UHGV virus genome: UHGV-0133295
DNA from: a virus
Length of the DNA stretch: 30,956 bases
Reading direction: 5' to 3' (one strand)
Within the stretch, counting starts at the first letter, position 1. Each line of letters begins with the position of its first letter. Made by a program: the position numbers. Positions 12,001 through 15,000 of this stretch are shown piece after piece.

Positions 12001-15000
12001 CAACCTCCTTAGTTTTGAGCAGGATACCATGAAAAAAGTAAACATCTTTTGCCTACTTCACATTTGAATGTTTTGTCATTAGGATGTTTCCGGTTTTTTA
12101 AATATGGAAATTGATATGAAGAGGATTATTAGCGTCGTTGCTGGCGCTATCATGTTATCTGGGTGCGCAACTATTGTTGGTGATGAAACGCAACTTGTGC
12201 AAGTGAACAGCAATCCTTCCGGTGCGAGCTTTAAGGTAAAAGACGAATCAGGCGTGATTGTTGCGCAAGGTAAGACCCCGCAAGGAGTAACTCTTGCCAA
12301 GTCAGATGGTAGTTATTTTGGCAAAAAGAGCTACCAGATCACTATGGAGAAGGATGGGTACGAACCAGTTACCCTGCCAATCAAAGCCAATGCTAATGGT
12401 TGGTATATTGGTGGAAACCTTGTGTTTGGTGGGTTAATTGGTTGGCTTGCTGTAGATCCATTTAATGGTGGGATGTATACCTTGAAGCCTAAAGAGGCAA
12501 ATGCATCCCTTATACCGTCCACAAAGCACGACTAATAAATGGAACCCACCATCAGGTGGGTTTTTTGTACAAATCCTTCAGCGTATCAAACACCATCTTC
12601 TTAACAAGTTCGGACTGCTCATCAGCGATGCGTTCCGCATCGTCTCGATAGCCTGAAATTTTGGATGGCTTTGATACAGCATCAGTCACTATCTGAACTA
12701 ATTCTGAATTAAGAGAGCGGCCATTGGATTTGGCTCGCTGTTTTAGTTTTTCCTTTAATTCGTAAGGTAGCCGCAGATTAAATTGCGGGTCATCTCTTCC
12801 CATTCTTGATGCCTCGCTTTTGTGAGTGGATCGGCATCTTATTATCTGCTGGTTGCATCCTCAATAAGACCACAGTGGTCTCTTTGTTTGATTAATAATA
12901 CATCACTGTGGCAATGCTGCGGCGATTCCTTGTATCTGGAGCAAATTAAATGACAGACATTACAGCCAATGTTGTAGTGAGTATGCCTTCGCAACTCTTC
13001 ACTATGGCGCGTTCTTTTAAAGCCGTAGCCAATGGCAAAATTTATATCGGTAAAATTGACACTGACCCGGTAAATCCTGAAAACCAGATTCAGGTTTATG
13101 TAGAGAACGAAGACGGTTCTCACATTCCTGTTTCGCAACCAATAATCATTAACGCTGCTGGATATCCGGTATATAACGGACAGATTGCCAAATTCGTAAC
13201 CGTGCAAGGCCATTCTATGGCTGTTTATGATGCGTATGGTACACAGCAGTTCTATTTTCCGAATGTGCTGAAGTATGATCCTGATCAGTTACGACAGCAA
13301 TTAGAAGACCCAGATGGAGCGAATAAATACCCAAAACTTCAGATAGCAAGATGGAGAGACAGTTATGATGTAAGAGGTTGGGGGGCTATTGGTGATGGTG
13401 TTCATGATGATACATCAGCTCTATCAGAATTACTTTCTGTTGCAACAGGTGGTGAAAAGATAGATGGGCGAGGGCTTACTTTTAAAGTATCAACTCTTCC
13501 AGATGTCAGTCGATTTAAAAATGCTCGTTTTTTATTTGAGAGAATACCGGGTCAGCCTCTTTTTTATGCTTCTGAAGATTTTATCCAAGGAGAGTTATTT
13601 AAAATTACAGATACACCGTGGTACAACGCCTGGACGCAGGATAAAACGTTTGTATATGACAATGTCATCTATGCGCCTTTTATGGCTGGAGACCGCCATG
13701 GTGTAAATAACCTCCATGTTGCATGGGTTCGCTCAGGAGATGACGGGAAGACCTGGACAACGCCGGAATGGCTTACAGATTTACATGAAAACTATCCCAC
13801 AGTTAACTATCACTGCATGAGTATGGGGGTTGTCAGAAATCGCCTTTTTGCTGTAATTGAGACGCGGACCGTGAGCGGAAATAAACTGCAGGTTGCAGAG
13901 TTGTGGGATCGCCCAATGAGTCGCAGCCTTCGCGTTTATGGTGGTATAACGAAAGCAGCAAATCAGCAAGTCGCTTATATTCGCATTACTGATCACGGAT
14001 TATTTGCTGGTGATTTTGTCAACTTCTCAAACTCTGGTGTTACAGGTGTTACCGGGAATATGACGGTGACTACTGTCATTGATAAAAATACTTTTACAGT
14101 TACGACGCAAAATACCCAGGATGTGGATCAGAATAACGAGGGTAGATACTGGAGTTTTGGTACATCATTTCACTCGTCACCATGGAGAAAAACCAGTCTT
14201 GGAACTATTCCTTCTTTTGTTGACGGAAGCACTCCTGTTACTGAGATTCACAGTTTTGCGACGATTAGCGATAACAGTTTTGCTGTTGGCTACCATAATG
14301 GTGATATTGATCCACGCGAGCTTGGGATACTCTATTTCTCTGATGCTTTCGGTTCTCCTGGTAGCTTTGTTCGCAGACGCATACCTGTAGAATATGAGGC
14401 GAATGCATCTGAGCCATGTGTAAAATATTATGATGGCATTCTGTATCTGACGACCAGGGGGACATTAAGTACTCAACCCGGTAGTTCATTGCACAGAAGC
14501 TCTGATTTAGGTACATCATGGAATTCTCTTCGCTTCCCAAATAATGTTCATCACTCAAACCTTCCTTTTGCCAAAGTTGGCGATGAGCTGATTATTTTTG
14601 GCAGTGAGCGCGCATTTGGTGAGTGGGAAGGAGGAGAACCTGATAACCGTTATGCAGGAAATTATCCAAGAACATTTATGACCAGAGTTAACGTCAATGA
14701 GTGGAGTCTGGATAATGTAGAGTGGGTTAATGTTACTGATCAGATTTATCAGGGCGGAATAGTTAACTCTGCGGTTGGTGTTGGTTCAGTTTGTATCAAA
14801 GACAACTGGCTGTACTACATTTTCGGTGGGGAAGACTTTCTAAACCCATGGAGCATAGGGGATAACAACAGAAAATATCCTTATGTTCACGATGGTCACC
14901 CGGCTGATTTGTATTGTTTCAGGGTGAAAATTAAACAGGAAGAATTTGTTTCAAGGGATTTTGTCTACGGAGCCACTCCTAACAGAACGCTTCCTACTTT

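What the first reader, a model, noticed from the sequence alone, without database searches (positions are those of the whole stretch)
12552..12949. Orphan Mnt repressor with a variant palindromic operator; arc and ant absent
Mnt is almost P22-like, but the 146-bp region up to the tailspike start has no arc or ant ORF. It holds a perfect palindrome AGACCAC-A-GTGGTCT where P22 has GGTCCAC-G-GTGGACC, and the Mnt N-terminal beta-strand residues that contact DNA differ (GRDDPQFNLRLP versus ARDDPHFNFRMP as I recall P22 Mnt). That is consistent with repressor and operator changing together. With no antirepressor to control, what Mnt regulates here is open; it could be its own promoter or tailspike read-through.
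Basis: partly seen in the sequence, partly recalled or inferred. Interest (0 to 1): 0.45.

Follow-up and report, generated by a model that had tools for sequence, protein, structure and literature searches.

The report
Mnt repressor without its antirepressor
This prophage keeps a P22-type Mnt repressor and its matching DNA binding site but has lost the antirepressor genes Mnt normally controls, a layout already seen in phages ST64T, L and SE1, so it is real but largely ordinary.

Summary
An 83-aa Mnt gene lies at 12552-12803 (-). A 146-bp spacer follows, then an endosialidase tailspike gene at 12950. A perfect palindrome, AGACCAC-A-GTGGTCT, sits at 12867-12881. No arc or ant homologue occurs anywhere in the window.

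The palindrome occupies the position of the P22 Mnt operator, 2 bp upstream of the apparent -35 of the mnt promoter.

In about 100 related loci, every Mnt starting RDDPQFNLR (Gln6) sits next to AAGACCAC-N-GTGGTC. The His6 (P22), Lys6/Thr8 and Gln6/Arg8 types each have a different palindrome. Repressor and operator therefore vary together as linked modules.

Full mnt-operator-arc-ant modules with this exact operator exist in other phages, so it is a genuine immI operator class.

The mnt-only layout is not new. It is published for ST64T, ST104 and L. Here it also appears in E. coli, Klebsiella and Serratia P22-like prophages, including 112 of 5426 complete E. coli genomes.

The gene is under purifying selection (dN/dS about 0.1), so it is not a decaying relic.

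The operator is unique in the complete related phage genomes. The likely cis target is mnt's own promoter. What selects for the module remains untested.

The parts
12543..12562 (.). Bidirectional intrinsic terminator (AACCCACC-ATCA-GGTGGGTT). It ends the + strand gene 12104-12535 and the - strand mnt gene. The last codons of mnt lie inside the stem.
   Evidence: Flagged by the terminator scan. The same feature is annotated as a rho-independent terminator at the mnt 3' end in phage epsilon34.
12552..12803 (-). mnt: an 83-aa ribbon-helix-helix repressor with the Mnt C-terminal tetramerisation domain. It belongs to the Gln6 specificity class (GRDDPQFNLRLP).
   Evidence: PDB 1mnt E = 2.8e-34 and 1qey 3.1e-12. 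Pfam Arc plus Repressor_Mnt. dN/dS is 0.08-0.11 against the Salmonella ST160-type orphan mnt.
12836..12841 (-). Inferred -10 of the mnt promoter Pmnt. It reads TAAGAT on the - strand, against TATCAT in P22 and TATGAT in ST64T-type phages.
   Evidence: Read from the sequence and from positional homology with the P22 mnt-arc spacer. It scores 8 of 12 to consensus, below the 9 of 12 threshold of the promoter scan, which found nothing. Not shown experimentally.
12859..12864 (-). Inferred -35 of Pmnt. It reads TTGAGG on the - strand, 17 bp from the -10. The TTGA is shared by all operator classes.
   Evidence: The motif TCAATA immediately left of the operator is conserved in P22, L090, Emek, L258 and the window. 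Inference only.
12831..12859 (+). Degenerate remnant of the rightward antirepressor promoter Pant. The -35 is TCGGCA (TTGACA in P22) and the -10 is TGCATC (TATATT in P22). The Arc operator is gone.
   Evidence: Alignment with P22 and epsilon34. All orphan lineages carry xxGGCA where full modules have TTGACA.
12867..12881 (.). Mnt operator of the Gln6 class, AGACCAC-A-GTGGTCT. The ancestral 17-bp form AAGACCAC-N-GTGGTCTT spans 12866-12882, and its outermost pair is broken in this window. The centre at 12874 lies about 45 bp upstream of the inferred mnt transcription start.
   Evidence: It sits at the position of the P22 operator. It is unique in the window and in the complete or near-complete related phages Gally and 720R6. 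The arms are conserved across E. coli, Salmonella, Klebsiella and Serratia orphans and in full immI modules, while the centre base varies A/C/G/T.
12882..12902 (+). Junction segment (CTTTGTTTGATTAATAATACA). It is T-rich and indel-prone, aligns with the tail of the P22 terminator downstream of ant, and is missing in ST64T/SE1-type phages.
   Evidence: Alignments. Together with the palindrome it is flagged as terminator-like. The hairpin is weak: -8.7 kcal/mol, z = -2.0.
12903..12925 (+). Conserved hairpin inside the sequence annotated as 'boundary sequence bsq1' in CUS-3, upstream of the tailspike ribosome binding site (GGAG at 12938-12941).
   Evidence: RNAalifold on 18 unique sequences gives 9 pairs, 3 of them with compensatory changes. 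CUS-3 annotation.
12950..15895 (+). Tailspike gene: a P22-type head-binding domain fused to a K1 endosialidase and its C-terminal chaperone domain.
   Evidence: Pfam Head_binding 1.6e-66, End_beta_propel 8e-233, Peptidase_S74 2.4e-10.

Best explanation
This is a mnt-only version of the P22 immunity I (immI) module in a CUS-3-like K1 prophage. The palindrome at 12867-12881 is the cognate operator of this Mnt. The repressor belongs to a specificity class (Gln6; N-terminus RDDPQFNLR) that differs from P22 Mnt (His6) and recognises AAGACCAC-N-GTGGTCTT instead of AGGTCCAC-G-GTGGACCT.

The module looks like a full mnt-operator-arc-ant unit that lost everything between the right edge of the operator and the tail of the terminator downstream of ant. 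The strong rightward promoter Pant has since decayed, while the leftward mnt promoter is kept.

In the lysogen, Mnt made from that promoter is expected to bind as a tetramer to this single site, just upstream of its own -35. There it would tune its own synthesis and block any rightward initiation or read-through from the old Pant region into the tailspike gene.

**Shown:** homology, position, uniqueness and conservation of the site; class-level covariation with the N-terminus; purifying selection on mnt.

**Inferred:** binding itself, the promoter hexamers, and the direction of any autoregulation.
For: - **Protein identity.** PDB 1mnt and 1qey; Pfam Arc plus Repressor_Mnt.
- **Position.** The palindrome aligns column for column with the P22 and epsilon34 operator. 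The right end of the spacer aligns with the last 60 bp or so of the P22 ant-gene 9 spacer.
- **Class association.** All 72 Gln6 loci from IMG/VR and GenBank carry AAGACCAC-N-GTGGTC about 62 bp from the mnt start, with a tailspike-type gene next and no arc.
- **Same in other genera.** Klebsiella and Serratia P22-like prophages show the same arrangement.
- **Full modules exist.** Loci L223-L229 and L237 have Mnt (ARDDPQFNLRM...), then TTGACA-17-TATCAT, then the same operator, then an arc-like gene, then ant.
- **Operator tracks the N-terminus, not overall identity**.
- **Other classes have other palindromes.** His6 pairs with GGTCCAC. Lys6/Thr8 pairs with AGGTCAC. Gln6/Arg8 pairs with GTCACAC. 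Gln6/Val9 pairs with TAGTAC.
- **Unique site.** It is the only such site in phage Gally and in 720R6 at up to 3 mismatches, apart from one chance-level hit inside the tailspike gene.
- **Selection.** dN/dS is 0.08-0.11 between orphan lineages, and 67 of 72 ORFs are intact.
- **Established knowledge, from my own memory plus titles seen.** Knight and Sauer 1989 showed that a short N-terminal region sets Arc/Mnt specificity. Stormo's group showed that changing one Mnt residue shifts the preferred bases at two adjacent operator positions (quoted in PMC1184061).
Against: - No binding or expression data exist for this class.
- The inferred mnt promoter is weak by consensus (8 of 12), and the promoter scan reports nothing.
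- With Pant dead there is no competing promoter. The indirect activation of Pmnt that I recall for P22 would then have nothing to act on, which leaves the reason for keeping the operator unclear.
- Some orphan lineages (L233-L236, L238) keep an intact mnt with a damaged right operator arm.
- Within the E. coli type, the arm positions carry at least as many singleton changes as the flank.
- Gln6 alone does not fix the operator. The Emek type also has Gln6 but uses TAGTAC.
Confidence: 0.62

Rival explanations
1. Trans-acting immunity. The orphan Mnt is kept because it shuts off the antirepressor gene of incoming or co-resident phages that carry a full immI module of the same operator class. That would protect the prophage from being induced by them. 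On this view its own operator matters little.
For: - Full modules with exactly this operator in front of arc-ant exist.
- The phage's own genome offers no other target.
- mnt is under purifying selection. This holds even between L233 and L238, whose own right operator arm is damaged: codons 1-50 show 7 synonymous against 2 nonsynonymous changes, dN/dS about 0.06.
Against: - Full modules of this class are rare: 7 IMG/VR contigs.
- Their flanks resemble Erwinia and Yersinia sipho- and myoviruses, not E. coli or Salmonella phages.
- None was found in 5426 complete E. coli genomes at blastn sensitivity or among named phages.
- The operator is nevertheless conserved in most orphans.
Confidence: 0.2
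2. Control of the tailspike. Mnt bound at 12867-12881 acts as a roadblock or repressor for rightward transcription into the endosialidase tailspike gene in the lysogen. Late, antiterminated polymerases override it.
For: - The site lies between everything upstream and the tailspike start, in every orphan locus in four genera.
- Villafane et al. suggest that the ant moron, and possibly Mnt and Arc, influence how much late transcription reaches the tailspike gene (PMC2629481).
Against: - No rightward promoter is detectable.
- The Pant hexamers are degenerate in all orphans.
- A strong bidirectional terminator already stands at 12543-12562.
Confidence: 0.15
3. Decaying relic. mnt and its operator are left over from a degraded immI region and do nothing now.
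For: - The authors of the phage L genome offered this as one possibility (PMC8022706).
- Two loci have truncated mnt (L069, L074).
- Several loci have single arm mutations or a lost right arm.
Against: - dN/dS is 0.06-0.11.
- 67 of 72 ORFs are intact.
- The same architecture, with 15-16 of 16 operator arm bases identical, is found in E. coli, Salmonella, Klebsiella and Serratia, although the flanks are only 68-85% identical.
Confidence: 0.1
4. The palindrome works as RNA. Hairpin plus U-rich tail would form a weak intrinsic terminator or attenuator for rightward transcripts ahead of the tailspike, replacing the lost terminator downstream of ant.
For: - The terminator scan flags AGACCACAGTGGTCT followed by CTTTGTTTGA.
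- The T-rich tail aligns with the tail of the P22 terminator.
- The fold is -8.7 kcal/mol with z = -2.0.
Against: - The stem is only 6 bp.
- The T-rich tail is absent from the Salmonella ST64T/SE1-type orphans, which keep the palindrome unchanged.
- The arms show no compensatory changes.
- The same palindrome lies at the transcription start region of Pant in full modules, where a terminator would make no sense.
Confidence: 0.07

Closest known systems
Phage P22 Mnt repressor and its operator in the immI region (mnt-arc-ant)
   Same: - Same two-domain protein: a ribbon-helix-helix domain plus the C-terminal tetramerisation helix.
- 76% identity overall, and nearly identical from residue 53 onward.
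- Same placement of a 17-bp palindrome with one central base, just upstream of the -35 of the divergent mnt promoter.
- Same terminator overlapping the 3' end of mnt.
   Different: - Residue 6 is Gln, not His. Residues 9 and 11 are Leu, not Phe and Met.
- The operator half-site is AAGACCAC, not AGGTCCAC.
- There is no arc, ant or sar.
- The Pant hexamers are destroyed.
The 'mnt-only ant moron' of Salmonella phages ST64T, ST104, L, SE1 and ST160 (Villafane 2008; Zaworski 2020)
   Same: - Same architecture: mnt, a 135-147-bp spacer, then the tailspike.
- Same N-terminal Mnt sequence (GRDDPQFNLRLPYELKEK).
- Same operator arms.
- 77-85% DNA identity across mnt and the spacer.
   Different: - The host is E. 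coli, and the tailspike is a K1 endosialidase.
- The C-terminal third of Mnt is P22-like rather than ST64T-like.
- The spacer keeps 12-13 extra T-rich bases after the operator.
- The outermost operator pair is broken.
Phage CUS-3 (E. coli K1 strain RS218)
   Same: Same endosialidase tailspike of 981 aa, a neuO-type heptanucleotide repeat and acyltransferase downstream, and the same boundary sequence upstream of the tailspike.
   Different: CUS-3 carries two mnt-like genes (one of His6 type) plus an ant gene. The window has one Gln6 mnt and no ant.
Full immI modules of the Gln6 class in uncultivated Enterobacterales phages (L223-L229, L237)
   Same: Identical operator (AAGACCAC-G-GTGGTCT) and the same DNA-contacting N-terminus (RDDPQFNLR).
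   Different: - They keep a consensus Pant (TTGACA-17-TATCAT), an arc-like gene and ant.
- Their Mnt has unrelated, longer C-termini (98-120 aa).
- They sit in sipho- or myovirus-like genomes.

Membership tests
Mnt repressor (Arc/MetJ ribbon-helix-helix superfamily) | N-terminal ribbon-helix-helix DNA-binding domain | tested here: met
   Pfam Arc PF03869 E = 2.8e-22 over residues 3-50. PDB 1mnt E = 2.8e-34.
Mnt repressor (Arc/MetJ ribbon-helix-helix superfamily) | C-terminal Mnt tetramerisation domain | tested here: met
   Pfam Repressor_Mnt PF11423 E = 2.2e-18 over residues 53-80. PDB 1qey E = 3.1e-12.
Mnt repressor (Arc/MetJ ribbon-helix-helix superfamily) | Palindromic operator with a single central base in the divergent promoter region next to the 5' end of mnt | tested here: met
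   AGACCAC-A-GTGGTCT at 12867-12881, aligned on the P22 operator and conserved across the class.
Mnt repressor (Arc/MetJ ribbon-helix-helix superfamily) | Sequence-specific binding of the protein to that operator | not testable with these tools
   Supported only by covariation between N-terminal type and palindrome.
P22 immunity I (immI) region | Antirepressor gene ant downstream of the operator | tested here: not met
   No Ant homologue in the window by tblastn with four Ant proteins. The tailspike starts 146 bp from mnt.
P22 immunity I (immI) region | arc gene and Arc operator between the Pant hexamers | tested here: not met
   No Arc-like ORF apart from mnt itself. The Arc operator segment is replaced.
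P22 immunity I (immI) region | Functional rightward promoter Pant overlapped by the Mnt operator | tested here: not met
   TCGGCA-17-TGCATC in place of TTGACA-17-TATATT. The promoter scan finds nothing. This is judged by sequence only.
Rho-independent terminator (for the palindrome) | Stable G+C-rich hairpin followed by a U tract, conserved among relatives | tested here: inconclusive
   Flagged by the scan, but the stem is 6 bp and the fold is -8.7 kcal/mol. The U-rich tail is missing in Salmonella-type relatives.

The most novel reading that the evidence does not exclude
The mnt-only module is not a leftover. It would be a stable, selected stand-alone unit of P22-like phages in at least four genera, whose job is to act in trans: a prophage-encoded 'anti-antirepressor' that silences the ant genes of invading phages of the same operator class, or an unknown host or prophage target. 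Operator classes would then define a second layer of immunity groups.
Probability: 0.2. Interest if true: 0.5.

Novelty: new member of a known kind. Interest (0 to 1): 0.27.

Why it matters
The practical value is modest.

- **For annotation.** Mnt-like genes next to tailspike genes in E. coli, Salmonella, Klebsiella and Serratia prophages belong to a distinct operator class. They should not be assumed to cross-react with P22 immI. This may also explain why phage L scored as lacking secondary immunity when tested against P22.
- **For protein-DNA recognition.** The natural series of Mnt N-termini paired with their palindromes is a ready-made test set for the ribbon-helix-helix recognition rules first worked out with Mnt mutants:
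  - His6/Asn8 with GGTCCAC
  - Gln6/Asn8 with AGACCAC
  - Lys6/Thr8 with AGGTCAC
  - Gln6/Arg8 with GTCACAC
- **An open biological question.** Why a repressor with nothing obvious to repress stays under purifying selection in many phages is a small question that simple genetics in phage L or Gally could answer.

Tried and rejected
- **Genome-contig scan.** The pattern CAATAAGACCACNGTGGTC gave only 8 chance hits in unrelated metagenome-assembled genomes. The species representatives evidently lack these prophages.
- **Stx-converting phages and Cronobacter phage ES2.** They looked like possible E. coli carriers of a Gln6-type full module, but their Mnt-like genes sit next to different spacers without this operator.
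- **Search for the full module in E. coli.** Using the L223-type Pant-operator-arc segment against 5426 E. coli genomes found only matches at about 68% identity. I did not fetch these; I assume they are the Emek/N7-type arc, since N7 and Emek gave the same ~68% match to this segment in the phage collection.
- **Protein search of named phages with L223 Mnt.** No full module of this class was found.
- **Sigma-70 scan of 12450-13050.** No promoter at its threshold. By eye I also found no convincing rightward promoter between the operator and the tailspike.
- **Second partial copy of the operator core.** CACTGTGG at 12904-12911 is part of the conserved hairpin, not a second operator. It varies freely among relatives.
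- **Primary Mnt specificity papers.** Knight and Sauer 1989, Silbaq 2002 and Man 2004 are not held in the library. The statement that residue 6 governs operator positions 16 and 17 therefore rests on my memory, plus one sentence in PMC1184061.
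Full report
**1. What is there**

The window carries the late region of a P22-like (Lederbergvirus) prophage.

- The minus-strand ORF 12552..12803 encodes an 83-aa protein. It matches the solved Mnt repressor at E = 2.8e-34 and the Mnt C-terminal tetramerisation peptide at 3.1e-12.
- It carries both Pfam domains, Arc and Repressor_Mnt.
- A bidirectional terminator at 12543-12562 overlaps its last codons, as annotated in phage epsilon34.
- After a 146-bp spacer, a 981-aa tailspike starts at 12950. 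It has a P22 head-binding domain fused to a K1 endosialidase.
- Downstream lies a neuO-type heptanucleotide array. The prophage is therefore CUS-3-like.
- CUS-3 itself has two mnt genes and an ant at this place.
- The perfect palindrome AGACCAC-A-GTGGTCT is at 12867-12881.
- tblastn with Arc and Ant proteins from P22, CUS-3, an E. coli prophage and L090 finds nothing in the window except mnt.

**2. The palindrome is the operator equivalent**

- Aligned with P22 and epsilon34, the left two thirds of the spacer is homologous to the mnt-arc spacer. The palindrome falls on the P22 operator AGGTCCAC-G-GTGGACCT. The motif TCAATA to its left is shared.
- On the minus strand that motif is the TTGA of the -35 of the mnt promoter. 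The window reads TTGAGG-17-TAAGAT, where P22 reads TTGAGA-17-TATCAT. This is my reading of the sequence. The consensus scan reports no promoter at its threshold.
- The P22 Pant hexamers TTGACA and TATATT have become TCGGCA and TGCATC, and the Arc operator is gone.
- The right third of the spacer aligns with the last 60 bp or so before P22 gene 9. CUS-3 annotates this as a boundary sequence.
- The layout is what would remain after removing arc, ant and most of the terminator downstream of ant, cutting right at the edge of the operator.

**3. The layout is known and common**

- The same mnt-spacer-tailspike arrangement is in phages vB_EcoP-720R6 and Gally (over 99% identical), ST160 and SE1 (85%), and ST64T, L, ST104 and SPN9CC (77%).
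[quoted passage not shown] - In IMG/VR, all 72 loci with the Gln6 N-terminus have a tailspike-type gene next to mnt, and none has arc.
- Klebsiella and Serratia P22-like prophages show the same arrangement.
- The module covers at least 80% of the query in 112 of 5426 complete E. coli genomes.

**4. Repressor and operator vary together**

- Every Mnt with RDDPQFNLR is next to AAGACCAC-N-GTGGTC, and the central base takes all four values.
- This holds for proteins only 46-58% identical to the window Mnt (L158, L223, L228, L237), which have 15-16 of 16 arm bases identical. P22 Mnt is 76% identical and has 11 of 16.
- Other N-termini have other palindromes:

| N-terminus | Palindrome |
|---|---|
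| ARDDPHFNFR | GGTCCAC-G-GTGGACC |
| ARDEPKFTFR | AGGTCAC-G-GTGACCT |
| ARDDPQFRIR | GTCACAC-N-GTGTGAC |
| ARNDPQFNVR | TAGTAC-G-GTACTA |

- Gln6 is therefore necessary but not sufficient to define the class.
- mnt in the window is mosaic. Codons 1-52 differ strongly from P22 (dN 0.26), while codons 53-80 are almost P22 (dN 0.03). The DNA-binding end of the gene and the adjacent operator travel as one linked unit.
- This fits the established result that a short N-terminal region sets Arc/Mnt specificity (Knight and Sauer 1989, title seen). It also fits the finding that one Mnt residue change shifts preference at two adjacent operator positions (PMC1184061).
- That the residue is number 6 and the positions are 16 and 17 is my recollection. 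The papers are not held in the library.

**5. A full immI module with this operator exists**

- A pattern scan and a search with the L090 Mnt found contigs with the order: Mnt, then TTGACA-17-TATCAT, then AAGACCAC-G-GTGGTCT, then an arc-like gene, then ant.
- They are few, 7 contigs. Their flanks resemble Erwinia and Yersinia sipho- and myoviruses.
- The palindrome is thus a genuine operator class of immI, placed over the start region of a consensus Pant.

**6. Is the orphan functional?**

*Evidence for function*
- dN/dS is 0.11 and 0.08 between the window and two Salmonella orphan lineages.
- It is about 0.06 over the DNA-binding domain between L233 and L238.
- 67 of 72 ORFs are intact.
- The architecture spans four genera.

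*Evidence that the local site is not always needed*
- L233-L236 and L238 have a damaged right arm.
- A few E. coli copies have single arm changes or truncated mnt.

**7. What can it regulate?**

- In the complete genome of Gally and in 720R6, the operator is the only such site at up to 3 mismatches, apart from one chance-level hit in the tailspike gene. Neither has a P22-type ant; they carry only Rha-like genes.
- The only cis targets are therefore the mnt promoter, whose -35 is 2 bp from the operator, and rightward transcription into the tailspike.
- I found no rightward promoter.
- The palindrome plus the T-rich tail looks like a weak terminator. The tail is missing in the Salmonella type, and in full modules the same palindrome sits at a promoter start. 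I therefore rate the RNA reading low.
- My best account is a cognate operator-repressor pair that autoregulates mnt and keeps the old Pant region shut.
- The trans-immunity idea is the most interesting alternative. It is weakened by the rarity of matching ant-bearing phages in the same hosts.

**8. Verdict**

This is a real, correctly described feature. It is a new member of a known kind: a mnt-only immI remnant of the ST64T/L type, here in a K1-specific E. coli prophage. The operator-class covariation is a neat but expected property of the family. The unanswered question, why the module is conserved, was already posed in the literature.

Noticed in passing
window 12903-12925: A conserved hairpin (TCACTGTGGC-AAT-GCTGCGGCGA) lies about 13 nt upstream of the tailspike ribosome binding site, inside what CUS-3 annotates as boundary sequence bsq1. 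On 18 unique P22-like sequences, 9 pairs are predicted and 3 show compensatory changes. Klebsiella, Serratia and L174 versions keep the stem with different sequence. One E. coli subgroup has it deleted. Its function is unknown.
   Followed up: partly
window 12874 (centre of the operator) and the same column in L010-L089: The central base of the palindrome is A, C, G or T among spacer sequences that are otherwise almost identical. It is the most variable column of the alignment. This could mean an uncontacted base or a mutational hot spot at the palindrome centre.
   Followed up: partly
window 16052-16109 and 16420-16755: There are 8.3 copies of the heptanucleotide TCAAGAC (AAGACTC rotated) upstream of a hexapeptide acyltransferase ORF. 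This is the phase-variable neuO arrangement of CUS-3. If the phase rule I recall for neuO holds (ON when the count is a multiple of three), the gene is probably OFF.
   Followed up: partly
window 17100-30956: A separate phage-like element lies next to the prophage end. It includes an HTH_36 protein at 21265-21981, a capsid protein E at 24077-25105, a 611-aa protein with no Pfam hit at 25412-27247, and an integrase at 28046-29380 (-). It is about 96% identical to APEC O1 295074-308836. In strain E1 the same prophage instead abuts the vat island.
   Followed up: partly
window 12552-12803: mnt is a recombinant. The DNA-binding half (codons 1-52) is of ST64T/SE1 type. The tetramerisation part (codons 53-80) is nearly identical to P22, with dS still 0.37.
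   Followed up: yes
L233-L236 and L238 (IMG/VR): These orphan mnt genes have an intact 82-83-aa ORF, but only the left half of the operator survives (AAGACCACCGTAGCACC or AAGACCACCGTGGAACC).
   Followed up: partly
L174 7728-7775: A divergent orphan module carries a full operator plus a second left half-site (TAAGACCACC) 21 bp further towards the tailspike.
   Followed up: no
Lys6/Thr8 (ARDEPKFTFRMP) pairs with TAAGGTCAC-G-GTGACCTTA and has arc and a Bro-N antirepressor. A Gln6/Lys8 type pairs with GGACCAC-G-GTGGTCC.
   Followed up: no
window 11609-11998 (-) and 12104-12535 (+): Two small genes with lipoprotein-like signal sequences sit between the ejection protein gene and mnt. Neither has a Pfam hit. 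RefSeq names the second one peptidase associated/transthyretin-like. They are probably moron genes expressed from the prophage.
   Followed up: no
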